From a virus (lineage: Duplodnaviria > Heunggongvirae > Uroviricota > Caudoviricetes), in the IMG/VR virus record IMGVR_UViG_2585427757_000006: DNA of 64,000 nucleotides. One strand, 5' to 3'. Both the position numbers and the translations under genes were made by a program. Each line of letters begins with the position of its first letter. The stretch's first letter is position 1. Positions 6,250 to 62,604 of this stretch are shown piece after piece. The notes beneath the pieces are model-generated. The model did no database searches. It worked only from the letters and a program-made list of their open reading frames with translations, and was not told the origin of the DNA.

Positions 6250-7350
6250 ATGAGCGAGTCCAAATCGCCGGATGCCCTGAGAGCAATGGTAGCCGGTACG
6301 CTGGCTAATTTTCAGCACCCAACCCTGAAACACAACCTGACTACGCTTAAAGCGTTACACCATGTTGCGTTGATGGATGACACACTGCATGTCGAACTAA
6401 TCATGCCTTTCGTGTGGAATAAGCCTTTTGAAGACCTGAAAGAGCAATGTAGTGGTGATCTGCTCCGTATCACTGGCGCAAAGGCTATTGACTGGAAGCT
6501 GTCGTACAACATTGCCACGCTTAAGCGCGTCAAAAACCAACCAGGCATTAATGGCGTTAAGAACATTATCGCCGTCAGCTCAGGCAAGGGCGGCGTGGGT
6601 AAATCCTCCACGGCGGTAAACCTGGCACTGGCGTTGGCTGCTGAAGGTGCGAAAGTTGGTATTTTGGATGCCGATATCTATGGTCCATCAATTCCAACCA
6701 TGCTGGGCGCGGAAAACCAACGTCCAACCTCACCGGACGGTACTCACATGGCACCTATCATGTCTCATGGCCTGGCAACCAACTCTATTGGTTATCTGGT
6801 CACCGACGACAATGCAATGGTGTGGCGTGGACCGATGGCCAGCAAGGCGCTGATGCAGATGTTGCAGGAAACACTGTGGCCTGATCTGGACTATCTCGTT
6901 CTCGATATGCCACCGGGCACTGGTGATATTCAATTGACGCTGGCGCAGAACATTCCTGTAACTGGTGCGGTTGTGGTAACTACGCCGCAAGACATCGCGC
7001 TGATCGATGCGAAGAAAGGCATTGTGATGTTCGAAAAAGTCGAAGTGCCGGTACTGGGTATCGTTGAAAACATGAGTGTGCATATTTGCAGTAACTGCGG
7101 TCATCACGAGCCAATTTTTGGCACCGGTGGCGCACAGAAACTGGCCGAGAAATACAACACGCAGTTGTTAGGCCAAATGCCACTTCATATCTCTCTTCGT
7201 GAAGATCTGGATAACGGAACACCAACCGTTATTAGTCGTCCAGATAGTGAATTTACGGCTATTTATCGTGACCTCGCAGATCGCGTTGCTGCCCAAATGT
7301 ATTGGCAAGGTGAAGTAATACCTGGCGAAATCGCATTCCGCGCAGTGTGA
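6250..7350 (+). CDS. apbC: Fe-S cluster carrier ATPase ApbC/Mrp
   Basis: [11 protein letters not shown]-loop and the CSNCGHH motif. Collinear with E. coli Mrp as recalled; divergent from metG as in E. coli. Confidence 0.95.
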
Positions 7351-7618: not shown

Positions 7619-7648
7619 TATTTATTCATGCCGAAGGATTTGTAGCGT

Positions 7649-8029
7649 CTAATTGCCGGATAAAATGGGGTGAGGTGCTTGCCAGTAGGCTCCACCGTTC
7701 CATGTGAACCCCATGCGAATAAGAGTGTTTATTGCGGCTTTGGTAGACTCCGATTCGACACTGGCTTTACGAAACTCTTGAACCTCTTTCGCCAACTTGT
7801 ATGTAATTGTGCAGGGGACGATTGCAGCCCAGCCTTTCTCATGACTGTTAATGACCATCTGGATGTGACCATCCAGAATAGGTTGATTAGGCATGTTATT
7901 GAAAATGTCTGCCTGTTTTTGAATGTGAAGAAAAAGCCTTGCCAGCGCCATTTGCTCACTACGAGACAAGGGATTATCAAGAGGGCTTTTTGCAAAAGCT
8001 GCTATACGCTGTGCATCAATGCCAAACAT
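7649..8029 (-). CDS. Hypothetical protein (126 aa)
   Basis: Long ORF whose start codon shares one nt with the stop of the upstream gene (8029). No motif recognised. Confidence 0.6.
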   Translation of the reverse strand: MFGIDAQRIAAFAKSPLDNPLSRSEQMALARLFLHIQKQADIFNNMPNQPILDGHIQMVINSHEKGWAAIVPCTITYKLAKEVQEFRKASVESESTKAAINTLIRMGFTWNGGAYWQAPHPILSGN

Positions 8030-48609: not shown

Positions 48610-50973
48610 TCAAATATCGAAGCTCGTTATGTCGGCATTTATTGCCATTGCTTCGGCATAAGTGCGACGCTCACCATCAGCACAAAGTAGGCGTGCTGCT
48701 TTATGGATTTTTCTCGTAGAACCATCATCCAGTGACACTGTCACCCAGCCTTCCTCCGCTCGCTTAATGAAGTCGCCGCCAATGGATTTCATTTTCTCCA
48801 TATCTTTTTTCCCGATCGCTTTCCTGACCGAGTCTGCTTCCGCCATTGAGAACCCCGCCAAGATTCGCGTAGCAGCCATGATCTGTTCCTGATAAATCAG
48901 AACTCCGTTTGTGTCGCGAGAGATGTCGTCCAGCATTGGGTGTAAGGAATGTGGGGCCATGAAGCCTTTGGCCACGGACACATAATCGTCCAACATGCCG
49001 GATTGAATCGGGCCAGGTCGGAAGAGCGCAGTTGTAGCGACGACCGTTTTAAAGCTCATTGGCTCAATTCCACCACCTAAATCTTTAAGCAGCTTGCGCA
49101 TTGGGCCTGATTCAAGCTGGAATACGCCCTGTGTATACCCTGCAGCAAAACCATCCAGCACCTTGCGATCTTCAAGAGAAATGGCATCAAGATTGATATC
49201 TTCACCTGTGTTCTCTTTTATGTAGCGTTTTGCACTATCGAGCAAATCGAGAGTTGCCAGGCCAAGCACGTCCAGCTTAATTAGGCCCATAGCCTCGCAG
49301 TAACGCTTGTCAAATGCGATACAACGCGCGTCACCACGGCGTTCAACCGGTGTACGTTCTGTCAGAGGAACACCTGCTACGATCATCCCTGCCGCATGTC
49401 TACCAAAGCCACGCATAAGGCTTTGTAACTTGCAGGCTGCATTGAATGCATCAGGATATTTTGTTGCGTATTTGTCGAGACTTGCCAGTTGTTCGCGCAG
49501 CTCTTCCAATGGAAGGCTATCATCCTCGACGTTCTTCAGTTCTTTTGATACCGCCATATCTGCGGACTCCACACCATAAATACGAGCGGTGTCACGTAGT
49601 GCAGAGGCTGCGCCCAGGTAGGTGAAGTTCGGAATGCCTGCAACGTAATCTTCGCCGTAGCGTTCATTCAGATACTCGATCACCTCATGGCGACGTGCCT
49701 GGCTGAAGTCCAAGTCCGCATCCGGCAAGTCGAGACGCTCAGGGTTGATGAAACGCTCAAACAGAAGACCGTGACGGATTGGGTCGACGTTGGTTATGCC
49801 TATGCACCACGCCACCAGAGAACCGGCAGAGGAACCACGACCAGGCCCAACGGGAATGCCAGTTTCACGACTATGATTCATCAGATCGCGCACCATCAGG
49901 AAGTAACCACAGAATCCCAGGCGAGTCAGCGTGTCCATTTCGTACTTTAGCCGCTCAACATAAACCCTGTTCTCAGAAGCAGGTGGTGTGTATCCAAACT
50001 CTTTTGTGGTAAGACGTTTACGCAGCCCTGCAACAGCCAGTTTCATCAGCGTTGCAGGTTCGTCGTCTGCCATCTTGGGCAGTGCTGGTGGCAATTCATG
50101 CCAGCGCCATGTGCAGGCATCGATAATGGAGTCCTGCGTTGTTGAGGCCATTGCAGCTGTTACCGGCACATCCATGCGAACGGAGAAGGCTTTAAGCGCC
50201 TCAAGGAGATGGCGACGACCATTGATGGCGTTATCTCGCTGGTGGGGGATACGCAGACGATGCGGCTGGTCGATTTTTATGTTGTTCGTAACCATGTGCG
50301 CAATGTCTTTAATGTCTGCATCGTCGATCGATTCGTAATAAGCGGGATAGAACGCCACTGGCTCTATTTTCAATGCGCTGGCGACTTTCATCGCCCGGAC
50401 GTTAATCTGGTCGTAGAATGGGGTAGGGTGCGGATAAACCACACTATAGAAGTTGTCTTTTCCACCCGCTGTAATCAGTGTGCTTATGATTTTTGCAAAA
50501 TCGTTGCGTTGGAACACGCTACCGATGTCGGAAGTAAGCAGGATGATGTTGCCTTTGGCATATGTAGAAACCAACTGTTCGAGCGAGAGACGCGGCACAA
50601 AGTAGAACTGTTCTCGTGTGTTGGCCACCGTCATTAGTTCGCAGATGTCGCGATATCCTTGCTCATTTTTAATTAGAGCGGTAAACGAGTAGTTACGTCC
50701 CCGCTCTAATGATTCCATACATCTCATAGATTCTTTAGCAAGTTTAGCCCGGTGCTCGTATGTGGGATCATCAACAATGTTTAGTTTCACACCACAAATA
50801 ACCGCCATGTCGTCACCAGCGGCACGTTGTAGTGGAATAACGCTCGCAATATTCATGCTATCTGCTGAAATTACAGCGGTGTAGCCAGCTTCTCTGGCAA
50901 TCTTCACCGCGTTTTCAGCTTTTAGAGCCGACTCCCCAAGTGAGAAGTCAGTTCGAACCATCAGTGCCTTCAT
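48610..50973 (-). CDS. dnaE: DNA polymerase III alpha (DnaE-type) N-terminal fragment: PHP, palm, thumb (787 aa)
   Basis: GPGRGSSAGSLVAW, DLPDADLDF (catalytic Asp pair) and LFRPGP. Ends 45 aa after ..FIKRAEEG with non-DnaE-like sequence. Confidence 0.9.
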   Translation of the reverse strand: MKALMVRTDFSLGESALKAENAVKIAREAGYTAVISADSMNIASVIPLQRAAGDDMAVICGVKLNIVDDPTYEHRAKLAKESMRCMESLERGRNYSFTALIKNEQGYRDICELMTVANTREQFYFVPRLSLEQLVSTYAKGNIILLTSDIGSVFQRNDFAKIISTLITAGGKDNFYSVVYPHPTPFYDQINVRAMKVASALKIEPVAFYPAYYESIDDADIKDIAHMVTNNIKIDQPHRLRIPHQRDNAINGRRHLLEALKAFSVRMDVPVTAAMASTTQDSIIDACTWRWHELPPALPKMADDEPATLMKLAVAGLRKRLTTKEFGYTPPASENRVYVERLKYEMDTLTRLGFCGYFLMVRDLMNHSRETGIPVGPGRGSSAGSLVAWCIGITNVDPIRHGLLFERFINPERLDLPDADLDFSQARRHEVIEYLNERYGEDYVAGIPNFTYLGAASALRDTARIYGVESADMAVSKELKNVEDDSLPLEELREQLASLDKYATKYPDAFNAACKLQSLMRGFGRHAAGMIVAGVPLTERTPVERRGDARCIAFDKRYCEAMGLIKLDVLGLATLDLLDSAKRYIKENTGEDINLDAISLEDRKVLDGFAAGYTQGVFQLESGPMRKLLKDLGGGIEPMSFKTVVATTALFRPGPIQSGMLDDYVSVAKGFMAPHSLHPMLDDISRDTNGVLIYQEQIMAATRILAGFSMAEADSVRKAIGKKDMEKMKSIGGDFIKRAEEGWVTVSLDDGSTRKIHKAARLLCADGERRTYAEAMAINADITSFDI

Positions 50974-55154: not shown

Positions 55155-55541
55155 ATGTCTGACAACAAGATTGAATTTATAGAAAGTCGCTATGCTGCTT
55201 TTATCGCAGGGCTGATTGAATCCTCACCTATGAGTCAGGCCCAAATAGCCAGACTTATTGGTTATAAAAATGCCAACAACCTTTCTTTAATTAAAAGTGG
55301 CAAAATTCCTTTGCCTATCGATAAGGTTCGTCCGTTGGCGCTGGCGCTGGGTATTGAGCCAAGTCGTCTTATGATGATGGTGCTGGAAGAACGCCAACCT
55401 GAACTCGCAGCATTTTTATACAAAGAAGGCACCGCTCCTCTTAACGAGGACGAAAAACAGGTTCTTGCTGCATATAACGAGCGATTCGGTAAAGAGAAAG
55501 GCGCATCACAAAAGGTTGTTGAGGCTATAAAGTCTCTATGA
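55155..55541 (+). CDS. XRE-type helix-turn-helix regulator (128 aa)
   Basis: MSQAQIARLIGYKNANNLSLIKSG fits an HTH. Converges on and overlaps the integrase gene end by 6 nt. Confidence 0.7.
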   Translation: MSDNKIEFIESRYAAFIAGLIESSPMSQAQIARLIGYKNANNLSLIKSGKIPLPIDKVRPLALALGIEPSRLMMMVLEERQPELAAFLYKEGTAPLNEDEKQVLAAYNERFGKEKGASQKVVEAIKSL

Positions 55542-56639
55542 AAAATTTACACGAATAAGCTCTGTTGATAGACGATCTCCCTTAAATTTGTGGTCAATTT
55601 CGTCTAAATCCGGTTGCTCTACGATTGATGCGATGTACGTCGAGAAACTTTCTAAGGCGTCTCGCATCTCGTCCATATAATCGTGCCGGTCGTAGACCCG
55701 ATCTATCCCCTCAAGACTGTGGTTCATGATTTTACGTGATACCTCCTGGCTTATGCCTAATGCTGGGAAGTAACTACGCGCAGTACGGCGCAAATCTCGG
55801 GGTGTAAATGGCTCAAGCTCCATCAGTTCTGGTCGTTCCAGAATACGACGTAATGCCTGGGCTATTGCCACTTTAGACATAGGAAGGTCTTTCCCGATTT
55901 TTTTATTCGAAGGCACGAGCCACTGGCTGTCTTTACCATATTCGAACAACTCTTCAATACAAGTGCGCATTAATGAGCTTAAAGGCAGAGAATGCTCACG
56001 GGCAGATTTGTTCCTCTTGCCTTGATTCCAAACCCCACGCTTAAGATTGAACTCACTTTTTTTAGCCCGCAGTACTTCGTCAGGTCGTCTTGCGGATACA
56101 AGACATAGCCTGGCCGCCCATTTTGTACCAGCACACACATTGAAGTAGTCCCATATATTCCAGAACACCCATACCTCTGCGTCGGTCAGCTTCCGCTCGC
56201 GAGGTGTGGGCTTTGCGCCACCGGCAACTTTGTTTAGTGACATATCGTTTAACGGTGACACGTCTATCATCCCCTGGAAGGCGCACCAGCTAAGGAACTG
56301 CTTCATCAGAGAGAAAACGCGGCGGCCCATAACAATTTTGCCATCCAGTATTAGTGGGTTGACCAGTTGGTTCACCATGAACCTATTAATGTCACTTACT
56401 TTTACATCGGCAATGTGCGGCAAAACATGTATCAAAATACAATGAACAGCGATCTCTGGCCGACGTCTGGTTATCAGCAGAGATAAGCGAGTGAATAACA
56501 TGAATGCGTCCGAGAATCTCATGTCATTGCTGACCTGGGAGATCATAACGGCCTGCATTTGAGATGCTCTTTCGAGATACTCTATCGCCTCTTTTGAGGT
56601 GTTCTCCGCAGCGCGTGCTCTGTCAAAGCTATTTTTCAT
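55536..56639 (-). CDS. Tyrosine recombinase / phage integrase family (367 aa)
   Basis: Catalytic context ARRPDEV (Arg), PRDLRRTA (second Arg), MNHS (His) and VYDRHDY (Tyr). Confidence 0.9.
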   Translation of the reverse strand: MKNSFDRARAAENTSKEAIEYLERASQMQAVMISQVSNDMRFSDAFMLFTRLSLLITRRRPEIAVHCILIHVLPHIADVKVSDINRFMVNQLVNPLILDGKIVMGRRVFSLMKQFLSWCAFQGMIDVSPLNDMSLNKVAGGAKPTPRERKLTDAEVWVFWNIWDYFNVCAGTKWAARLCLVSARRPDEVLRAKKSEFNLKRGVWNQGKRNKSAREHSLPLSSLMRTCIEELFEYGKDSQWLVPSNKKIGKDLPMSKVAIAQALRRILERPELMELEPFTPRDLRRTARSYFPALGISQEVSRKIMNHSLEGIDRVYDRHDYMDEMRDALESFSTYIASIVEQPDLDEIDHKFKGDRLSTELIRVNFS

Positions 56640-56737: not shown

Positions 56738-56770
56738 AATGATTCCATACATAGTAGGTATGGAATCATT
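56738..56770. promoter_or_regulatory. lox/FRT-like site: perfect 13-bp inverted arms around a 7-bp spacer
   Basis: aatgattccatac atagtag gtatggaatcatt, 99 nt upstream of the integrase ATG in the divergent intergenic region. Confidence 0.55.
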
Positions 56771-56889: not shown

Positions 56890-57426
56890 GTGAACAACCA
56901 AATTCATTGGGACTACCCATTCTCAGAAGAATTCGGCAGTGGGATGGTACACAGACAATTCACTGTGGGAAGCACTATTTATGCCGTTGGGTTTGAACAA
57001 ATATTGACGATGGATGATTTCACACGTAAGGGAGTTGATATCCTAAATGTACATCCAACATTCCGGTTTCCTCTGAGTGGTGTATGGGGAGTGATTTTTG
57101 ACGAAATTGACCCTGTAGAAATGGATTTCAAAGGATTTCGGCATATCCAACATCAAGGCTTGGCAGGTGGTCAAGTGCTTTTGAATGTTGCAAGTATAAT
57201 CTTTGACCATTATACTGTTTGTAACGCAGGAGCTTATGTCTTCTCCGCCGCAGACGACCATCAGCATTTACGCAGAACTGACTTGGTTGACATTTACTGT
57301 AAGATACTAGGTCTAAATGGAAAACGTAAAAGTAGATTGTTCGCCAATGGTTTTCCTGGATGGGAGGCATACTGTGATGTACCAACAGGAGGAAGAGGCT
57401 ATGTCGTCACGACTGAAAGTTATTAA
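56890..57426 (+). CDS. Hypothetical protein (178 aa, GTG start)
   Basis: Long plus-strand ORF. No motif recognised. Confidence 0.5.
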   Translation: MNNQIHWDYPFSEEFGSGMVHRQFTVGSTIYAVGFEQILTMDDFTRKGVDILNVHPTFRFPLSGVWGVIFDEIDPVEMDFKGFRHIQHQGLAGGQVLLNVASIIFDHYTVCNAGAYVFSAADDHQHLRRTDLVDIYCKILGLNGKRKSRLFANGFPGWEAYCDVPTGGRGYVVTTESY

Positions 57427-57628
57427 TTATTACCCCACCTCTGCAGAACGTTTGAGCCTTGAAATGGGCGAAAGACTACAGAAAGCTGCTGGTCAGGATT
57501 TAAAGAACAAGTTGGGTTCAGGGGAAATTAAACTGATTAACGGTAAATATGTAGGTGAAAGCCTGAAAGTTAATAGCACCTCTATGCTAAAAGCGCGGTT
57601 GCGTAAAGCGTATATCCCCGCTAAATGA
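57401..57628 (+). CDS. Hypothetical protein (75 aa from MSSRLKVINYY)
   Basis: ATG at 57401 preceded by ggaggaagagg. Overlaps the upstream ORF by 26 nt. A terminator follows. Confidence 0.4.
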   Translation: MSSRLKVINYYPTSAERLSLEMGERLQKAAGQDLKNKLGSGEIKLINGKYVGESLKVNSTSMLKARLRKAYIPAK

Positions 57629-57650
57629 AAAGGCCTATATGGGCCTTTTC
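57627..57650. terminator. Bidirectional terminator between convergent genes
   Basis: gaaaaggcc tatatg ggccttttc. Confidence 0.7.
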
Positions 57651-57654
57651 ATTT

Positions 57655-57900
57655 TTATAGTGTACTCACCAGCGCCGCAAATTCCGTATACCCCCCAATA
57701 TGCTCTCCATGTATGAATATCTGAGGTATGGTATCCACTGGTTTACCAACCAGGTTGCTCAACGTTTCTTTGTTGATCCCCGCAGATGTAATATCTATAT
57801 ACTCATAATCACCGTAGCCATGTCCCTTTAGTTGCTTCGCCAACTCGACCGCACGTTTGCAGTATGAGCAGTTATCTCGTCCGTAGATAGTGATCGTCAT
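57655..57900 (-). CDS. Glutaredoxin-like redoxin (81 aa)
   Basis: Active site CSYC at residues 11-14, a TIPQIFI..G..IGG motif, and small size. Plausible electron donor for NrdAB. Confidence 0.8.
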   Translation of the reverse strand: MTITIYGRDNCSYCKRAVELAKQLKGHGYGDYEYIDITSAGINKETLSNLVGKPVDTIPQIFIHGEHIGGYTEFAALVSTL

Positions 57901-58073
57901 AACTTAACAAATACCTTTATAAATATTGATTCGAACATATCAGACTATACTACAAACAGATTTTTTTGATAAGTATGTAGTAACTTATTGATTGACTAGT
58001 AAACAATTGAAGTGATTACGACAATAGATTACAGTAAGGATTGCCTTGAAATGTACATTTTATAGAGGTTTTA

Positions 58074-58982
58074 ATGATTGGTAAGTTGTCTGATTCTTTG
58101 ATTGAAAATAAATACAACGAATTTAGAGAAGAAATATCTTTACTTTTTGACTATTTAAATCAGATAAATGATACAACAAAGAAAAATATAAAACGTCTTC
58201 TTAAAGAAGTGGAGTATGCACAAAATCCAGATACTATTATTAATATTAATGAAACTATTAAGATTAAGTGTGGCACAACGTTAGCTCGCCATTTATGTTC
58301 AAACCCATATACAGGTTCAACATTAGAGATAGGTAACAGCGCCATTGATTTAGAAGAAAAGATAAGATTGTGTAATACTTTGAAAAATAAACAATATCAG
58401 TGGGTTATTACTGAAGCCTATGAGTTACTGGAAGACTATATTGAGGCAATATATGTCTATACTGTATGTGTTCGAAATGATTTATGGTCCTCAAGTGATT
58501 TTGGTAAGGTTGAAGATGATGAAATTGGGAAAAGGGAAGTTTATTACAGATTATTAAAAGCAAAAAGTAACCCATCGAAAAAAATAACTAAAATTTTCAG
58601 AAATAAAATACCTGGCTTCAAAGAGATAGAAACAAACAACAAGATTGGCAAAAACTATCGCTTTAACATCAAGCTAATTGAACTACTAAGACATACAATA
58701 GTACACAATAGTGGACGATTCAATGATACAGAAAAATTTATAAATAAGGTTTTAGATGAATCTGAAATAAACGGTAAGAAAAGAGTTATTGGAGAAAGAG
58801 CTGTTAGAAGTTACATTACTAAAGTGCAAGAAGATGATATTGTGATGCTCTTAGAAAGACCATCTGAAATTTTAGGTTCTTTTGGTGGGTATTTTAACAG
58901 AGCAAAATTTTTACTAAGTGATATTTTAGAATACTCACTAATCATTAAAGAAGAACTAAAATCATATCTAGGCAATCATTAA
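58074..58982 (+). CDS. Low-GC hypothetical protein with a HEPN-type Rx4H motif (302 aa)
   Basis: SD agagg at 58064-58068. LIELLRHTIVHNSGRF gives R-HTIV-H. Composition (by eye below ~30% GC) is much lower than the neighbours. Confidence 0.6.
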   Translation: MIGKLSDSLIENKYNEFREEISLLFDYLNQINDTTKKNIKRLLKEVEYAQNPDTIININETIKIKCGTTLARHLCSNPYTGSTLEIGNSAIDLEEKIRLCNTLKNKQYQWVITEAYELLEDYIEAIYVYTVCVRNDLWSSSDFGKVEDDEIGKREVYYRLLKAKSNPSKKITKIFRNKIPGFKEIETNNKIGKNYRFNIKLIELLRHTIVHNSGRFNDTEKFINKVLDESEINGKKRVIGERAVRSYITKVQEDDIVMLLERPSEILGSFGGYFNRAKFLLSDILEYSLIIKEELKSYLGNH

Positions 58983-58986
58983 CAAA

Positions 58987-59013
58987 AAAGGGGCCGAAGC
59001 CCCTTTGGATTTT
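58987..59013 (+). terminator. Strong intrinsic terminator after the HEPN-motif gene
   Basis: aaaggggc cgaa gccccttt, then ggatttt. Confidence 0.8.
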
Positions 59014-59080
59014 GCGCTTAAAAAAGTGTTGCTAGGATGTTAGCAAGCTATGGTTAAGAACGTCTGCCGTAATTGTCTAT

Positions 59081-59158
59081 CACAGCGTTGAGCGGTCTGG
59101 TTTATGTTAGCGGAGTCTTAATCTGGGTGATTAAAAGGCCAAACCGCTCAACGCTGTG
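59081..59158. repeat. Long hairpin A, 16-bp perfect arms, abutting the tRNA-Ser 3' end
   Basis: cacagcgttgagcggt 59081-59096 pairs with accgctcaacgctgtg 59143-59158. Confidence 0.85.
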
Positions 59159-59160
59159 TC

Positions 59161-59247
59161 TGGCGGAGAGTAATGGAATCGAACCATCATCGCTTGCGCA
59201 ATGGGACGGTTTTCAAGACCGCTTGAGCACCATGCTCCCTACTCTCC
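59161..59247 (-). tRNA. tRNA-Ser (anticodon UGA), class II, CCA encoded
   Basis: Hand fold: acceptor ggagagt/actctcc, anticodon arm gcggt-cttgaaa-accgt, variable arm with a gcaa tetraloop, T arm gatgg-ttcgatt-ccatt. Confidence 0.85.
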
Positions 59248-59249
59248 GG

Positions 59250-59399
59250 CCGTTGTGGTGGCCGGTACTGAATCTCCGGCATACGGTGCAGCCAATTAGG
59301 ACTACGGACGATCACCGCTCGCGAAAGGGAAGATTTGCGGCCGCATTTCCCTAACATCCAAGAAAGCTATCGCATCAGTCTGCGAATCCACCACAACGG
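59250..59399. other. 150-nt segment closed by a 12-bp perfect stem between tRNA-Ser and tRNA-Thr (candidate small RNA)
   Basis: ccgttgtggtgg 59250-59261 pairs with ccaccacaacgg 59388-59399. Internal hairpin agggaa..gcggccgc..ttccct. Confidence 0.3.
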
Positions 59400-59471
59400 T
59401 AAGATCACTACCTTTCGACCAGTCATTGTGCACATGAACGACGATTAACCGTAATGATCTTATCGTTGTAT

Positions 59472-59547
59472 TGGTGCCGGTTAGCGGACTCGAACCGCTG
59501 ACATCCTGCTTACAAGGCAGGCGCTCTACCAACTGAGCTAAACCGGC
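59472..59547 (-). tRNA. tRNA-Thr (anticodon UGU), CCA encoded
   Basis: Canonical cloverleaf: gccggtt ta gctc agttggta gagc g cctgc cttgtaa gcagg atgtc agcgg ttcgagt ccgct aaccggc a cca. Confidence 0.92.
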
Positions 59548-59551
59548 AATT

Positions 59552-59638
59552 TGGTGGGGAGTGATGGAGTCGAACCACCCGAGTCGCAATGACAGTAGAT
59601 TTACAGTCTACCCCGCTGCCCCTACGGACTAACTCCCC
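59552..59638 (-). tRNA. tRNA-Tyr (anticodon GUA), class II, CCA encoded
   Basis: Acceptor ggggagt/actcccc, anticodon arm gtaga-ctgtaaa-tctac, variable stem gtc/gac, T arm ggtgg-ttcgact-ccatc. The D arm is slightly non-canonical. Confidence 0.8.
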
Positions 59639-59643
59639 TAAAT

Positions 59644-59718
59644 TGGCGATGGTGGGTGGATTCGAACCACCGACCAGTTGGTTAACAGCCAACTGCTCTA
59701 CCGCTGAGCTACACCATC
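59644..59718 (-). tRNA. tRNA-Asn (anticodon GUU), CCA encoded
   Basis: Canonical cloverleaf: gatggtg ta gctc agcggta gagc a gttgg ctgttaa ccaac tggtc ggtgg ttcgaat ccacc caccatc g cca. Confidence 0.92.
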
Positions 59719-59984
59719 AATTCAGCACTGCCAGTATTTATTACTCAACAGTGCCAATCGCGACGGTTTAGTTTCTGCCAGGAAACGCACCGCTACTTGC
59801 ACTTTTCGTTTGTGCCAGACGCTTTCGACTTCGCTCAATAGTAGAAGGCAAAATCTTTAAGTAGATGATGTTTCTGAGGACAGCACCTACTTTGTAATTT
59901 ATACAATGTGATGTATGGAATCATTTGTTGTGAAAACAGGCACCAATGGCAACAGTGGTTAAACCTACACAACAATCCTGTCTT

Positions 59985-60106
59985 CACAACGTTGAGGCCA
60001 CTACTCCGATTGAATGTTTGCCCAACATGTTACATATCAACGCTCGCCGGTATCTCTGTGAATAGAACCTTAGAATTGATAAAAATGTAATGGCCTCAAC
60101 GTTGTG
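59985..60106. repeat. Long hairpin B, 16-bp perfect arms related to hairpin A
   Basis: cacaacgttgaggcca 59985-60000 pairs with tggcctcaacgttgtg 60091-60106; 90-nt loop. Confidence 0.85.
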
Positions 60107-60439
60107 TGCTGGCTAACCATACCAGCCGGGCTACGTCGCCGCTTTTTAACCCAGTATAAACGACATAATTGAACAAAATGACGTAACAGGATGGGCGGTC
60201 AGTGGCTAAGAATCCGGGAGTCATATGGAGTTGAAAATATACCAACCGCCCATTCTGTTCCCTCCTGCGTTCTGCAATCACACTCGCTCAGTGTGTCCCA
60301 TTTCGGTAACGAGGCTGGAAACTGACCTCGCTGGTGTTTGGCTTATTAGGCTACTGCCAGATAGACTTCTTCGTTTGCACTTGTATTTAAGTTCAAACAG
60401 TCGCGTCTCAACGAAAACAAAGTCATCTTATACATAAAA

Positions 60440-60461
60440 GATAAGTAAGTAAATACTTATC
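60440..60461. promoter_or_regulatory. Representative family B palindrome
   Basis: gataagta agtaaa tacttatc. Confidence 0.5.
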
Positions 60462-60470
60462 AATATGTTT

Positions 60471-60761
60471 TTATTCGGTTGTGACTTTTTTGATCAAGGC
60501 CACTCTACGACTAGGTGTTCTTGTAATGGTGGCAGTGAATCGTTTCGCTTGGATAGTAATGGTTTCGTTCTCCTTAAGTTGCCCGTAGCGAGTTTCCACC
60601 AGGGTGCCAAGACGCCACAGACCATCATCGATACGTTTATGACTAGCAAATTTAATCAGCAACAGTTTTACGACTAACTGACCTACGTAAAAGGCGAATG
60701 CGACTCCGGCCGCTAAGAAATAGGTGGCCAACCACCATTCCCAAGAAGTTAAATTGCTCAT
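60471..60761 (-). CDS. Membrane protein (96 aa)
   Basis: TM segment WWLATYFLAAGVAFAFYVGQLVV and SD aggtg. The ATG overlaps the upstream stop as ATGA. Confidence 0.6.
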   Translation of the reverse strand: MSNLTSWEWWLATYFLAAGVAFAFYVGQLVVKLLLIKFASHKRIDDGLWRLGTLVETRYGQLKENETITIQAKRFTATITRTPSRRVALIKKVTTE

Positions 60762-60910
60762 TTTTTCACCTTTGTTTCATGAACTACCCGATACACACGC
60801 TTTCCGATGCACAGTGTTTTGGTTTTAAGTTCCTGCTTAATTAAATCACGACAGATGCCGAAGCCGATAAGGAAGCCACCCATAAAAGCTAATGAGATGT
60901 ATGGAATCAT
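60758..60910 (-). CDS. Small membrane protein (50 aa), not in the ORF track
   Basis: Hand translation gives MIPYISLAFMGGFLIGFGICRDLIKQELKTKTLCIGKRVYRVVHETKVKK. ATGA overlaps at both ends. Confidence 0.5.
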   Translation of the reverse strand: MIPYISLAFMGGFLIGFGICRDLIKQELKTKTLCIGKRVYRVVHETKVKK

Positions 60911-61122
60911 TTTAACACTCCTGATTCTACTAATTGCTGTAGCAATACTTTCCCTTTATCAGTTAACTGGTAGTTGGCCGAACACCACGTTTCAGAAACG
61001 TTTGCAACCAACCCTAAACGCTCTAACTTAGCTCGCGTTTTAGGCTTCCAGTACTCAGGGAACTCCGGCCACTTACTGATTTCATGAAGCGTTTCCTTCT
61101 CCCGTTTACTTAATACGATCAT
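60907..61122 (-). CDS. Hypothetical protein (71 aa)
   Basis: ORF in an ATGA-coupled chain. Confidence 0.5.
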   Translation of the reverse strand: MIVLSKREKETLHEISKWPEFPEYWKPKTRAKLERLGLVANVSETWCSANYQLTDKGKVLLQQLVESGVLK

Positions 61123-61285
61123 CCTTAATCTCCTTCAGGGTGTTGGTTATTTCTACAATGCGATAAATACGACCGCGTCTTTCTATAACACCGCTTTTAA
61201 TGTAGTCATTGATGCAACTGGACATCACCACAATACCTATGAAAAAACCAACTGCTAAAAATGCAATCATCCAGCCGAGCATCAT
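61106..61285 (-). CDS. Small membrane protein (59 aa), paralog of 60758..60910, not in the ORF track
   Basis: Hand translation gives MMLGWMIAFLAVGFFIGIVVMSSCINDYIKSGVIERRGRIYRIVEITNTLKEIKDDRIK. The ATG overlaps the ligase stop as ATGA. Confidence 0.5.
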   Translation of the reverse strand: MMLGWMIAFLAVGFFIGIVVMSSCINDYIKSGVIERRGRIYRIVEITNTLKEIKDDRIK

Positions 61286-62604
61286 TCTTTATCTCCGATT
61301 CGATCTTCTGTATCGCGTAAGCAACGCGGCCATTTCAGTCGGGGGTGGCGTAAGCTGCCATCCGGTGTTTTCTCGTGACAATGAACCTCAACAATACGAC
61401 CACGGTACTTCTCTTTGTTGTTCCAGATCTCGTCCAGATATTTATGCTTAATACCGCTCGCACGAACGATGACGCCGTTTTCAAGACGAATAACAATTTT
61501 TCCAAGTGTGTTGGCAAAACCAGAGTCCGGGTCGCCCGGCTCAAAGTCGATAATTTCACCATCTTCTGAATCTTCGTCTTTTAACTTCCACCAGCTGCGG
61601 GTACGTTTAAACTCGTAAACAGAGTTCGGATCTTTGCCCATCTCCCCTTCTTCGTTATCGTCCAGGCGTTTCATGAAGCGTTCGATGAAGTCTTCGTGGC
61701 TATGGATGATATAGAACGGATGCAGGTGAATATCTTGTGTGTAGCCTTCACTGCGATCGTTTTTGAACAACGCCACCAGCATAGCCAGGCGCTCTTTCAG
61801 CTTCATACCTGTCTTTGCATACTCTTTGGATTTAGCCTGTGCTCGCCATTCCGGTAGGAAGAAGTCGAAAACATGATAAATAGCGCCAATTGCCTGCACG
61901 TTCTTTTTGCGCAATGCAGATACGGACTGGTTAAATGAACCGGCAGTTCCTTCACCATCGAAGAAGATGTGTTTGTGGCCTGAAAGTTTGCCTAATTCGA
62001 GCATGGCTGGCTTTAGGTGATCGAGAGACGTGATTGGATTACCAGTACGAGAAAGGAAGTTAACCTCTTCCTCGTCAACAATAACCTCGCAAATTACTCG
62101 CAAACCATCGAGCTTAAGACTGCCAATCATTGGCCATTTTGCTTTAGGATTTGGCTTGAAGGGGTATTTGTCGCCTTTTTCTTTATACGGTGACGCCAGC
62201 TGCACCTCGAATTTCGGAATGGGATTTTCAAAAACCTTGTTGCATAGGCTAATCCCAACGCCAGCTTTCGGGTCTTTTAAGAGGAAACGACGGAACACGT
62301 CCTGCCCATCGGCGCACATTGACGCCACGATAGACTCAACAGCTGCTATTGCTGCGTTCCCCGTTAGCTCGCGAGAGGCCAGCTTGTTCAGTACATCAAT
62401 GGCTTTTTCGTCACTTGGGATGGACTCACTAAGCGGCTCTGCCACTTTGTATTTCTTTACCCCAAAACGGATGAAAGGGTTGAGCATCAATGAAACCATG
62501 CTTTGCTCGAAGTCATCCATGTTGGCCAATGCCTCTTTTTTTGCATTGGTTCCCATAGCTTTCATTTCGTCCAGCTTATGCTTAAGTGCGATCAACTTTT
62601 TCAT
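61282..62604 (-). CDS. ATP-dependent DNA ligase (440 aa)
   Basis: Motif I SLKLDGLR (adenylated Lys), motif III FFDGE, motif IV EGEMGK, motif V WWKLK. Confidence 0.85.
   Translation of the reverse strand: MKKLIALKHKLDEMKAMGTNAKKEALANMDDFEQSMVSLMLNPFIRFGVKKYKVAEPLSESIPSDEKAIDVLNKLASRELTGNAAIAAVESIVASMCADGQDVFRRFLLKDPKAGVGISLCNKVFENPIPKFEVQLASPYKEKGDKYPFKPNPKAKWPMIGSLKLDGLRVICEVIVDEEEVNFLSRTGNPITSLDHLKPAMLELGKLSGHKHIFFDGEGTAGSFNQSVSALRKKNVQAIGAIYHVFDFFLPEWRAQAKSKEYAKTGMKLKERLAMLVALFKNDRSEGYTQDIHLHPFYIIHSHEDFIERFMKRLDDNEEGEMGKDPNSVYEFKRTRSWWKLKDEDSEDGEIIDFEPGDPDSGFANTLGKIVIRLENGVIVRASGIKHKYLDEIWNNKEKYRGRIVEVHCHEKTPDGSLRHPRLKWPRCLRDTEDRIGDKE

What the first reader, a model, noticed from the sequence alone, without database searches (positions are those of the whole stretch)
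59081..60106. Three long hairpins with related stems (CACA[A/G]CG...) flank and interrupt the tRNA cluster, including an unannotated 150-nt stem-closed segment
Hairpin A has 16-bp perfect arms (59081-59096/59143-59158) and a 46-nt loop, and ends 2 nt from the tRNA-Ser 3' end. Segment C is closed by the 12-bp perfect stem ccgttgtggtgg/ccaccacaacgg (59250-59261/59388-59399). It starts 2 nt from the tRNA-Ser 5' end and has an internal hairpin around a gcggccgc palindrome. Hairpin B has 16-bp perfect arms (59985-60000/60091-60106) and a 90-nt loop. The A and B arms differ at only a few positions (cacaGcgttgagCGGT versus cacaAcgttgagGCCA), and even their outer flanks are similar (tgtcta / tgtctt). 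Candidates are processing or terminator structures of the tRNA operon, stable small RNAs of the kind found inside T4-type tRNA clusters, or MITE-like mobile inverted-repeat elements.
Basis: seen in the sequence. Interest (0 to 1): 0.55.

Follow-up and report, generated by a model that had tools for sequence, protein, structure and literature searches.

The report
Structured RNA modules in phage tRNA operon
The three hairpins are real and belong to a conserved, unannotated set of structured RNA modules that fill the spaces in the tRNA operon of P1-like and SSU5-like phage-plasmids; one of them (segment C) is a tRNA-shaped small RNA of a family that is widespread in E. coli prophages.

Summary
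All three hairpins sit at the stated coordinates and are far beyond chance. They lie on the minus strand, inside a roughly 1.4-kb untranslated tRNA operon (Asn-Tyr-Thr-Ser) of a CMS-2020a/SSU5-like phage-plasmid.

There are two module kinds.

- **Type 1 (A, B, D, E):** roughly 20-bp stalks. They share the base CACAAC/GUUGUG, show abundant compensatory changes, and have G·U pairs only on the tRNA strand.
  - A always sits 1-2 nt after the last tRNA of the operon.
  - B always sits 213-270 nt upstream of the first.
- **Type 2 (segment C):** a conserved scaffold around a hypervariable core. It has a 7-bp closing stem, two 5-bp hairpins whose loops covary, and a 3' hairpin stacked on the closing stem as in a tRNA.
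  - A model built from 44 other members finds segment C alone in the window (34.9 bits).
  - The family occurs in at least 120 viral contigs and 642 of 5426 E. coli genomes.
  - It is absent from Rfam.
  - It includes the experimentally detected sRNA-17 of E. coli K1.

The MITE and terminator readings fail. My best reading is that the stalks are processing and insulating elements, probably RNase III substrates, that punctuate the tRNAs and release a tRNA-shaped small RNA. The cleavages themselves are inferred, not shown.

The parts
60180..60264 (-). Hairpin E: a degenerate type-1 stalk at the start of the untranslated leader (arms 60245-60264 / 60180-60199).
   Evidence: I5: 20-nt arms, 85% complementary. 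It is better preserved in relatives, with 22-26-nt arms at 91-92%. It is conserved across diverged leaders.
60107..60179 (-). Conserved leader block between E and B. It holds the helix UUAUGUCGUU / GGCGACGUA and the small hairpin GCUGG...CCAGC (about 60108-60127).
   Evidence: Alignment of eight diverged leaders and the context fold.
59985..60106 (-). Hairpin B: a type-1 stalk with a 20-bp stem (one U·G pair) and an 82-nt apical domain carrying conserved islands (CCACAGAG, UGUUGGG, AAUCGG).
   Evidence: In every locus that has it, it lies 213-270 nt upstream of the first tRNA.
59927..59990 (-). Module F: a small stem-closed module (GUUGUGAAGACAGG / CCUGUUUUCACAAC) that shares GUUGUG with the 3' arm of B.
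   Evidence: (I8).
59911..59925 (-). The 15-mer AAUGAUUCCAUACAU, invariant in all leader lineages. It is probably a DNA-level regulatory site, either an operator or a promoter element.
   Evidence: There are four exact copies and one copy with a single mismatch in the window, against about none expected.
59644..59718 (-). tRNA-Asn (GUU).
59552..59638 (-). tRNA-Tyr (GUA). It is absent from some close relatives, such as Cyrano.
59472..59547 (-). tRNA-Thr (UGU).
59392..59470 (-). It starts 1-2 nt after the tRNA-Thr CCA, and its 3' arm (CCGUUGUG) overlaps the 5' strand of C's closing stem.
   Evidence: I1; z = -4.6. It is present in only some relatives.
59250..59399 (-). Segment C: a type-2 tRNA-shaped scaffold RNA.
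- Closing stem: 59388-59399 / 59250-59261.
- 5' hairpin: 59370-59385, with loop GACUGA.
- Variable core: 59281-59369.
- 3' hairpin: 59261-59280, with loop AGAUUCAGUA.
- Proposed loop-loop pairing: ACUGA (59375-59379) with UCAGU (59267-59271).
   Evidence: covariation; a model built without C-type sequences finds it as the only hit in 64 kb, at 34.9 bits and E about 3e-7.
59161..59247 (-). tRNA-Ser (UGA), the last tRNA of the operon.
59081..59158 (-). Hairpin A: the terminal type-1 stalk. It has a 20-bp stem with an invariant U·G at pair 17, and an apical mini-hairpin followed by the conserved motif GACUCCGC.
   Evidence: It lies 1-2 nt after the last tRNA, whichever that is (Ser, Asn or His), in 65 of 73 cases.
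58981..59046 (-). End of the operon. A weak hairpin with a U run lies at 59020-59046. A strong bidirectional intrinsic terminator lies at 58987-59006 and is shared with the convergent ORF 58074-58982.
   Evidence: and the sequence.

Best explanation
Window 60.47 to 58.98 kb, minus strand, is one untranslated operon. Its four tRNAs are embedded in structured RNA modules of two conserved kinds.

**Type 1 (A, B, D, degenerate E).** These are stalks of about 20 continuous base pairs with the conserved base CACAAC...GUUGUG, a recurrent U·G at pair 17, and a variable apical domain. They begin 0-2 nt after a tRNA CCA end, or end exactly where a type-2 module begins. I infer that they are double-strand-specific processing and insulating stalks, most likely RNase III substrates.
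- Cutting the stalk would leave a short trailer on the upstream tRNA for exonuclease trimming.
- It would create the 5' end of the downstream RNA.
- It would free the GUUGUG strand so that the next module can close its own stem.
- A, the terminal stalk, would also shield the last tRNA from 3' exonucleases until it is cut.

**Type 2 (segment C).** This is a tRNA-shaped scaffold.
- It has a 7-bp acceptor-like stem.
- A 5-bp hairpin carries a GRCUGA loop.
- The core is hypervariable.
- A second 5-bp hairpin stacks directly on the closing stem, giving 12 bp as in the acceptor/T arm of a tRNA.
- The loop of that 3' hairpin (UCAGY) pairs with the loop of the first hairpin.

Segment C would be released as a stable small RNA. 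RNase P cleavage at the tRNA-Ser 5' end defines its 3' side, and cleavage of stalk D defines its 5' side. It would then act in trans through its variable core.

**Shown:** the structures, their conservation, their strand, their positions, and family membership. **Inferred:** the nucleases, the release, and any trans function.
For: **RNA level and strand**
- In 41 distinct type-1 stems, 18 of 20 pairs show compensatory double changes (142 cells; 0 of 500 shuffles reach this).
- After correcting for a bulged A, 93.9% of cells are paired. G·U outnumbers A·C 54 to 16 on the tRNA strand.
- The U·G at pair 17 is invariant in all 13 A-type variants.

**Position**
- The A-type stalk sits 1-2 nt after the last tRNA in 65 of 73 cases, whether that tRNA is Ser, Asn or His.
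- The B-type stalk is always in the leader.
- Type-1 stalks begin 0-2 nt after the CCA of Thr, Asn and Ser.
- Thirty-two of 104 type-2 contexts in other phages have an abutting upstream stalk of at least 14 bp whose 3' arm ends in the GUG that starts the scaffold.

**Type-2 structure**
- 99.3% and 96% of cells are paired in two alignments, with 8 and 11 of 24 pairs showing double changes.
- The loop-loop pair is GC, AU or GU and almost never mismatched.
- In alignment A6 all measures score 0 of 500 shuffles; in A1 three of the five measures do.

**Membership**
- Model R2 finds segment C as the only hit in the window, at 34.9 bits.

**tRNA likeness of the family**
- The closing stem is 7 bp and the stacked hairpin 5 bp.
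- CCA occurs 1-5 nt after the stem in 31 of 63 modules, against about 5 expected.
- True tRNA arms carrying a 62-nt insert in place of the anticodon arm lie next to a type-2 module in L199.

**Expression**
- The 129-nt module of L188 is the core of sRNA-17 of E. coli K1. That RNA was seen by northern blot and RACE, with its 5' end at the stalk/scaffold junction (PMC7719688; primers matched).

**Context**
- There is no conserved ORF.
- Terminators lie only at the end of the operon.
Against: - No transcript or cleavage data exist for this element. RNase III and RNase P are inferred only from stem length, geometry and analogy.
- The apical domains of A and B carry conserved islands (GACUCCGC; CCACAGAG, UGUUGGG) that a pure processing stalk would not need.
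- The invariant 15-mer between F and the tRNAs may mark an internal promoter. If so, B, E and F need not be on the same primary transcript as the tRNAs.
- In one relative (L079) hairpin B is exactly inverted with identical flanks. So DNA-level recombination between the arms does occur, and perfect inverted repeats can in part be kept up at the DNA level.
- Segment C lacks the CCA tail seen in half of its family.
- C's 12-bp stem loses to hairpin D in the joint fold.
- The covariation counts come from related and recombining sequences, so the cells are not independent events.
Confidence: 0.58

Rival explanations
1. The modules are chiefly trans-acting small RNAs: regulators, sponges or anti-defence decoys. 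The stalks A and B would themselves be functional RNAs whose conserved apical motifs bind a protein or an RNA. The tRNA operon would merely be a convenient, highly expressed vehicle that supplies the processing.
For: - The apical motifs are conserved: GACUCCGC after a covarying mini-hairpin in 11 of 13 A variants, and islands in B.
- The type-2 core is hypervariable on a constant scaffold, with 64 distinct modules of 62-212 nt. That pattern is typical of specificity determinants.
- Relatives are Hfq-associated or phenotypically active sRNAs: STnc100 and PasD (bioRxiv 10.64898/2026.05.13.724894) and sRNA-17 (PMC7719688).
- Most type-2 modules (96 of 120) have no tRNA nearby, so tRNA processing cannot be their purpose.
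Against: - The A, B, C and D loops show no complementarity to the rest of the 64-kb window beyond shuffled controls.
- A 6-nt complementarity between the A and B loops does not covary in relatives (sequences).
- The strict 0-2 nt abutment of the stalks to tRNA ends is unexplained by a purely trans role.
- This rival is not exclusive of the best explanation for segment C.
Confidence: 0.28
2. These are DNA-level elements. They could be MITE-like mobile inverted repeats, recombination or inversion sites, or single-strand DNA hairpins used in replication or recombination.
For: - Hairpin B is exactly inverted in L079 relative to L087, with identical flanks (111 of 112 nt).
- Modules are gained and lost between close relatives. 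The Ser-Thr spacer ranges from 8 to 646 nt.
- Module boundaries coincide with the shared CACAAC repeats.
- G·T is also the least destabilising mismatch in a DNA hairpin.
Against: - There is one locus per genome, with 335 of 337 places on the phage-plasmid and a median of one place per genome.
- The arm has no further copies in the 64-kb window.
- There is no target-site duplication and no transposase.
- The positions relative to the tRNA ends are fixed to the nucleotide across diverged phages.
- The partner module C belongs to a family with a northern-verified RNA (PMC7719688).
- Loss in Cyrano looks like a deletion between CACAA repeats, not an excision.
Confidence: 0.07
3. These are anti-termination or anti-Rho elements. 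The long untranslated operon would be protected from Rho either by dense structure or by boxA/nut-like sites formed at the stalk/scaffold junction.
For: - The consensus 3' arm of type-1 stalks in sister loci reads UGCUCUUACCGUUG or UGCUCUUUCCG. This resembles boxA (UGCUCUUUAACAA in rrn operons, CGCUCUUA in lambda; my own knowledge).
- It is followed 12-13 nt later by a 5-bp hairpin with a purine-rich loop, as in a nut site.
- In Pantoea and E. coli prophages the arrays sit in early operons next to the repressor gene.
Against: - None of the window's stalks carries GCUCUU. D has UGAUCUUA, A has CCGCUCAA and B has GGCCUCAA.
- The boxA-like strand is buried in a 20-bp helix.
- The hairpin loop covaries with a second loop rather than being kept free.
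Confidence: 0.07

Closest known systems
sRNA-17 of E. coli K1 RS218 (mEp460-like prophage; PMC7719688)
   Same: It has the same scaffold as segment C: GUGGUGAAUGCGCAGGCUGAUGCGC ... GCCGGAGAUCAGCACCGG(U/C)CACCAC. The published full-length primers match the L188-type 129-nt module and its upstream stalk junction. It is a discrete RNA on northern blots. The authors found no Rfam homologue, as I found here.
   Different: - sRNA-17 lies between a cI-like repressor gene and yfdP, has no tRNAs nearby, and ends in its own terminator.
- Segment C has a different 89-nt core, a GAU linker and UCGCA stem instead of AAU and GCGCA, and no terminator. It is flanked by tRNA-Thr (with stalk D) and tRNA-Ser.
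- The paper does not describe a family, the tRNA-like layout, the loop-loop pairing or the partner stalk.
STnc100 (Rfam RF02076) and PasD prophage sRNAs
   Same: They share the terminal helix and layout (UGGUGAAU + hairpin ... hairpin + CACCA). Sister modules in P1, P7 and L044 score 33-44 bits against a gathering score of 47. They occur in noncoding parts of temperate-phage operons.
   Different: - Segment C gets no RF02076 hit at E up to 10.
- A model built from STnc100-like modules aligns only its closing stem (13.6 bits).
- STnc100-type modules lack the CUGA/UCAG loop pair.
RNase III processing hairpins of the phage T7 early transcript and the processing stalks of rRNA operons (my own knowledge)
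   Same: They are repeated stalks of about 20 bp that punctuate a polycistronic transcript and bracket the functional RNAs. The paralogous sites share sequence.
   Different: Cleavage is not shown here. The stalks here abut tRNA CCA ends, carry large conserved apical domains, and share a strand with the next module's closing stem.
Stable RNAs of the phage T4 tRNA cluster (species 1 and 2, rnaC/rnaD), and the RNase P-processed C4 RNA of P1/P7 and CI RNA of P4 (my own knowledge)
   Same: They are non-tRNA structured RNAs co-transcribed with, or shaped like, tRNAs, and are matured by the tRNA-processing machinery in phages and phage-plasmids.
   Different: No sequence or Rfam similarity was found. 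C4 (RF01695) is detected elsewhere, in L188, but not at these modules. Processing of segment C is untested.
MITEs, REP and other dispersed inverted-repeat elements
   Same: They too have terminal inverted repeats with a variable interior and show presence/absence polymorphism.
   Different: These modules are not dispersed, have no target duplication, and sit at fixed positions. They are constrained on one strand at the RNA level.

Membership tests
Type-2 scaffold RNA family (sRNA-17 type) | Significant match to a covariance model built from other members. | tested here: met
   Model R2 was built from 44 members, none of the C type. It finds 59252-59397(-) as the only hit in 64 kb, at 34.9 bits and E about 3e-7.
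Type-2 scaffold RNA family (sRNA-17 type) | A closing stem, a 5' hairpin with GRCUGA loop, a 3' hairpin with UCAGY loop abutting the closing stem, and covarying loops. | tested here: met
   All helices are present in segment C. Covariation across the family is shown. Segment C has ACUGA/UCAGU where most members have GCUGA/UCAGC.
Type-2 scaffold RNA family (sRNA-17 type) | Accumulates as a discrete stable RNA. | not testable with these tools
   This is shown only for sRNA-17, by northern blot and RACE (PMC7719688).
STnc100 (Rfam RF02076) | Score at or above the family's gathering threshold of 47 bits. | tested here: not met
   There is no hit in 57000-62000 at E up to 10. A custom STnc100-like model gives 13.6 bits, from the closing stem only.
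tRNA or tRNA-like RNA | A cloverleaf recognised by tRNA detectors. | tested here: not met
   ARAGORN and the Rfam tRNA model call only the four tRNAs.
tRNA or tRNA-like RNA | A 7-bp acceptor-like stem coaxial with a 5-bp hairpin (12 bp in all), with the two side loops interacting. | tested here: met
   columns 3-9 pair and the outer two pairs form in only about 64% of members. The 3' hairpin is directly adjacent, and the loop pair covaries.
tRNA or tRNA-like RNA | A 3' NCCA end after the acceptor stem. | tested here: not met
   Segment C ends ...CACCACAACGGCC, followed by tRNA-Ser. In the family, 31 of 63 modules have CCA within 5 nt, against about 5 expected.
RNase III processing site | About two turns (20 bp or more) of continuous double-stranded RNA. 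| tested here: met
   A and B have 20 bp including one G·U, and D has 12+6 bp. Stem length is kept at 18-24 bp in 41 distinct stalks.
RNase III processing site | Cleavage that depends on rnc. | not testable with these tools
   No transcript-end data are available.
Intrinsic terminator | A G+C-rich hairpin followed directly by a U tract. | tested here: not met
   The scan finds terminators only at 58987-59006, plus weak chance-level sites. A is followed by AUAGACAAUU and B by AAGACAGG.
MITE or other mobile inverted-repeat element | Multiple dispersed copies in the replicon or host. | tested here: not met
   There are no further copies of the arm in 64 kb. There is one place per genome, and 335 of 337 places are on the plasmid.
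MITE or other mobile inverted-repeat element | A target-site duplication and precise empty sites. | tested here: not met
   No direct repeat flanks A or B. The Cyrano 'empty' Thr-Ser junction ACACAATT is a fusion of the first and last CACAA repeats of the array.
nut/boxA antitermination site | A single-stranded GCUCUU(U)A box upstream of a hairpin. | tested here: not met
   No GCUCUU occurs on the minus strand of 58960-60480. The related strand is base-paired in the stalks.

The most novel reading that the evidence does not exclude
Temperate enterobacterial phages carry a natural 'tRNA scaffold' system. A constant tRNA-shaped frame has an acceptor-like stem, often with a CCA tail, and two side hairpins locked by a Watson-Crick loop-loop contact. 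It displays a hypervariable cargo domain. The frame is matured by the host's tRNA enzymes, and its folding is gated by an upstream 20-bp stalk that holds the first bases of the acceptor strand. The shared CACAAC/GUUGUG ends let cassettes be swapped by recombination. The cargo would set phage-specific functions such as immunity, exclusion, or decoying of tRNA-targeting defence nucleases. Segment C and stalks A, B and D would be the version of this system embedded in a real tRNA operon.
Probability: 0.2. Interest if true: 0.8.

Novelty: new variant of a known kind. Interest (0 to 1): 0.62.

Why it matters
- Phage P1 is one of the best-studied phages. Even so, the 730 nt between its trnT and tciA genes are annotated only as two doubtful opposite-strand ORFs (plp, upl). 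The same module array fills that gap.
- The type-2 scaffold is present in about 12% of complete E. coli genomes with no annotation and no Rfam family. One member already has a virulence-related phenotype.
- Recognising the family, its tRNA-like layout and its partner stalk would unite scattered sRNAs (sRNA-17, and probably STnc100 and PasD).
- It gives annotation pipelines two new models.
- It offers a testable scheme for how phages mature tRNAs and small RNAs from long untranslated operons.
- A constant frame with a hypervariable core is also the signature expected of specificity or arms-race molecules.

Tried and rejected
- **Rfam.** A scan of the region at E up to 10 gave only tRNAs. Scans of canonical type-2 loci gave nothing.
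- **STnc100 membership of segment C.** Rejected.
- **Arm scan of one genome per species.** Only 2 hits, so the exact arm motif is narrow.
- **Literature search by sequence strings.** It returned only unrelated primers. Searches on the P1 tRNA or ban operon found nothing relevant.
- **Antisense targets of the A, B, C and D loops in the window.** Nothing beyond shuffled controls.
- **A-loop GACUCCG against B-loop CGGAGU (6 nt).** No covariation in relatives, so I treat it as chance.
- **boxA/nut reading.** The window's stalks lack GCUCUU.
- **Integron attC reading.** By inspection, the arms do not fit RYYYAAC/GTTRRRY, and the nearby tyrosine recombinase (55536-56639) is a generic phage integrase.
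- **Coding reading.** ORFs across the region (for example 59073-59354 on the plus strand and 59835-59987 on the minus strand) are not conserved. The MIPYI start created by the 15-mer runs into stops in relatives.
- **Hairpin A as a degenerate tRNA.** Only a 12-nt resemblance to the T-arm 3' half of tRNA-Thr (D10), and no arm can be formed.
- **RNase P cleavage at the base of type-1 stalks.** The flanks lack G+1/RCCA features, so I prefer RNase III.
Full report
**Where this is**

The window is 99% identical over this region to Escherichia phage CMS-2020a and 95-97% identical to phage Cyrano. Both are phage-plasmids of roughly 108 kb. Parts of the region also match P7 and D6.

ARAGORN and Rfam find four tRNA genes, all on the minus strand:
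- Asn, 59718-59644
- Tyr, 59638-59552
- Thr, 59547-59472
- Ser (UGA), 59247-59161

Upstream on the same strand are small ORFs and an ATP-dependent DNA ligase. Downstream, a strong bidirectional terminator at 58987-59006 is shared with a convergent AT-rich ORF. From about 60470 to 58980 there is no conserved ORF.

**Checking the observation**

A and B extend to 20 bp with a single mismatch. In both hairpins that mismatch is G·U on the minus strand and C·A on the plus strand. A close relative (L002) has a second such position.

Fold energies are far beyond shuffled controls for A (z = -11) and B (z = -6.8). They are weaker for C (z = -2.4). A window-wide scan shows no comparable G+C-rich long-loop inverted repeats elsewhere.

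- **Hairpin D** (59392-59470) lies between C and tRNA-Thr.
- **Hairpin E** (60180-60264) is a degenerate type-1 stalk.

**Two kinds of module**

Comparison with P7, D6, P1 and about 90 viral contigs retrieved with the arm motif shows that the non-tRNA parts of these operons are built from two recurring units.

*Type 1* is a long hairpin with this layout:
- 5'-C(A/G)CA(A/G)C-G/A-(G/U)U(G/A)AG... / ...CU(C/U)A(A/C)CGUUGUG-3'
- about 20 bp of stem
- loops of 30-90 nt that differ between paralogues

*Type 2* is a stem-closed unit that starts with the GUUGUG ending the preceding type-1 stalk, and ends in CACAAC.

A, B, D and E are type 1. C and the small F are type 2.

**Type-1 stalks are constrained as RNA on the tRNA strand**

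An alignment of 41 distinct arm pairs shows compensatory double changes at 18 of 20 pairs (142 cells). No shuffle out of 500 reaches the observed values, and slid registers collapse.

After correcting for a bulged A in one subclass, 93.9% of cells pair. G·U outnumbers A·C 54 to 16. These cells are not independent events. Even so, the U·G at pair 17 recurs in unrelated paralogues and is invariant in all 13 A-type variants.

**Positions are fixed**

- The A-type stalk has the conserved loop motif (A/U)GACUCCGC after a small covarying hairpin. It lies 1-2 nt after the last tRNA of the operon in 65 of 73 cases, whether that tRNA is Ser (49), Asn (15) or His (1).
- The B type lies 213-270 nt upstream of the first tRNA in every locus that has it. 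It sits inside a leader made of several blocks that are conserved across diverged lineages.
- Other type-1 stalks start 0-2 nt after the CCA of tRNA-Thr, tRNA-Asn or tRNA-Ser.

**Module turnover**

The Ser-Thr spacer measures 8, 195, 213, 224 (this window), 294, 320, 364, 446, 465, 490 or 646 nt in close relatives. It is therefore an array of varying module number.

Cyrano's 8-nt spacer ACACAATT is the start of a type-1 stalk fused to the end of a type-2 module. That is a deletion between the CACAA repeats.

**Segment C belongs to a large scaffold family**

Its 5' part is GUGGUG(G/A)AU + a 5-bp hairpin with a GRCUGA loop. Its 3' part is a 5-bp hairpin with an (A)UCAGY loop + CACCAC. Both recur with wholly different cores.

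These contigs hold 64 distinct modules of 62-212 nt. Each has a near-constant frame and a hypervariable middle.

Covariation supports all three helices and one loop-loop pair:
- GC 10, AU 4, GU 4 in the first set
- GC 36, GU 5, AU 2, one mismatch in the second set

The closing stem is effectively 7 bp, and the 3' hairpin stacks directly on it. This gives the 12-bp acceptor/T geometry of a tRNA.

Other findings point the same way:
- Half of the modules (31 of 63) have CCA within 5 nt of the stem, against about 5 expected.
- In L199, a unit with true tRNA acceptor, D and T arms, but a 62-nt insert in place of the anticodon arm, lies 9 nt after a type-2 module. L087 has a similar Thr-like unit.
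- A covariance model built from 44 members without any C-type sequence finds segment C as the single hit in the 64-kb window (34.9 bits, E about 3e-7 with rough calibration).

**Relation to what is known**

Rfam 15 has no family for these modules. Sister modules of another subtype in P1, P7 and L044 fall just below the STnc100 threshold. Segment C itself does not qualify.

The 33-nt 5' scaffold occurs in 642 of 5426 complete E. coli genomes. Almost all copies are chromosomal, and none has an annotated feature. They lie typically between a cI-like repressor gene and yfdP-yfdQ-yfdR.

That is the locus of sRNA-17 of E. coli K1. This 193-nt RNA was verified by northern blot and RACE, and its deletion raises yfdP about 95-fold (PMC7719688). 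The published primers match the L188-type module and show the 5' end at the stalk/scaffold junction.

In P1 itself the same array fills the 730 nt between trnT and tciA. The only annotation there is the opposite-strand ORFs plp and upl.

**How it most likely works**

*Shown:*
- structured RNA modules on the tRNA strand
- fixed abutment to tRNA ends
- a shared strand between each stalk and the next module's closing stem
- membership of C in a family with an expressed member

*Inferred:* the stalks, at about 20 bp, are RNase III-type processing and insulating elements.
- Cutting them leaves short trailers on the tRNAs.
- It defines the 5' end of the next RNA.
- It releases the GUUGUG strand so that the type-2 closing stem can form. 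In the joint fold D wins over C's stem.
- RNase P at the tRNA-Ser 5' end would make C's 3' end.
- C would then persist as a tRNA-shaped small RNA acting through its variable core.

I give this combined reading about 0.58. The purely trans-acting reading overlaps with it for C.

**What argues against the other readings**

- The MITE reading fails on copy number, target duplication and positional fixity.
- The terminator reading fails because there is no U tract.
- A boxA/nut reading is attractive for the consensus 3' arm in sister loci, but the window's own stalks do not meet it.
- DNA-level recombination at the arms does occur, since hairpin B is exactly inverted in L079. It may help keep the arms identical, but it does not explain the strand asymmetry or the positions.

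**Limits**

- There are no expression or cleavage data for this element.
- The covariation cells come from related and recombining sequences.
- E-values from the short-calibrated models are rough.
- The invariant 15-mer at 59911-59925 may mark an internal promoter. If so, B, E and F could be separated from the tRNAs at the transcript level.

Noticed in passing
window 50708-50722(+), 56738-56752(+), 56756-56770(-), 59911-59925(-), 60897-60911(-): The 15-mer AATGATTCCATACAT occurs four times exactly and once with one mismatch, against about none expected. Two copies form a palindrome at 56738-56770, between the integrase gene and the next ORF. The copy in the tRNA leader is invariant across diverged lineages. 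The 15-mer is probably the binding site of a phage regulator or a promoter element, and it also creates short MIPYI... reading frames.
   Followed up: partly
L079 about 7638-7749 versus L087 4946-5057: Hairpin B is exactly inverted (111 of 112 nt as the reverse complement) between two otherwise collinear relatives with identical flanks. This is either a DNA inversion across the 18-20-bp arms or an assembly artefact.
   Followed up: partly
L199 997-1117(-); L087 between tRNA-Asn and tRNA-Ser: These are tRNA-like genes with canonical acceptor, D and T arms and a CCA end. Their anticodon arm is replaced by an insert of 62-75 nt, too short for a group I intron. The one in L199 lies 9 nt downstream of a type-2 module.
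   Followed up: partly
L091 (phage P1, NC_005856) 6502-7234: The P1 ORFs plp and upl are annotated on the strand opposite the tRNA operon, exactly over the type-1/type-2 array. They may be spurious. The P1 leader also carries an annotated 'dicF-like region'.
   Followed up: partly
window 58074-58982(+): This AT-rich 302-aa ORF converges on the tRNA operon's terminator. It is absent from phage Cyrano and has no Pfam or PADLOC match. It may be an accessory (moron) gene.
   Followed up: partly
window 55155-56639: An HTH protein gene (55155-55541, +) and a tyrosine recombinase gene (55536-56639, -) lie about 2.5 kb from the tRNA operon. A glutaredoxin gene is at 57655-57900(-).
   Followed up: partly
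L004 (P7), L091 (P1), L024, L045 and other type-1 stalks: The consensus 3' arm of type-1 stalks (UGCUCUUACCGUUG or UGCUCUUUCCG) resembles the boxA antitermination box. It is followed at nut-like spacing by the first hairpin of the type-2 module. The window's own stalks lack the GCUCUU core.
   Followed up: partly
window 59161-59247(-): tRNA-Ser (UGA) scores best against the Rfam selenocysteine-tRNA model (46.6 bits, just under its cut-off of 47). It is unannotated in the P7 record, where only Thr and Asn are listed.
   Followed up: no
window 59552-59638(-): tRNA-Tyr is present or absent among close relatives; it is absent in Cyrano, L014, L025, L038 and L043. It is inserted between Asn and Thr with spacers of only 4-5 nt and no hairpin modules.
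   Followed up: no
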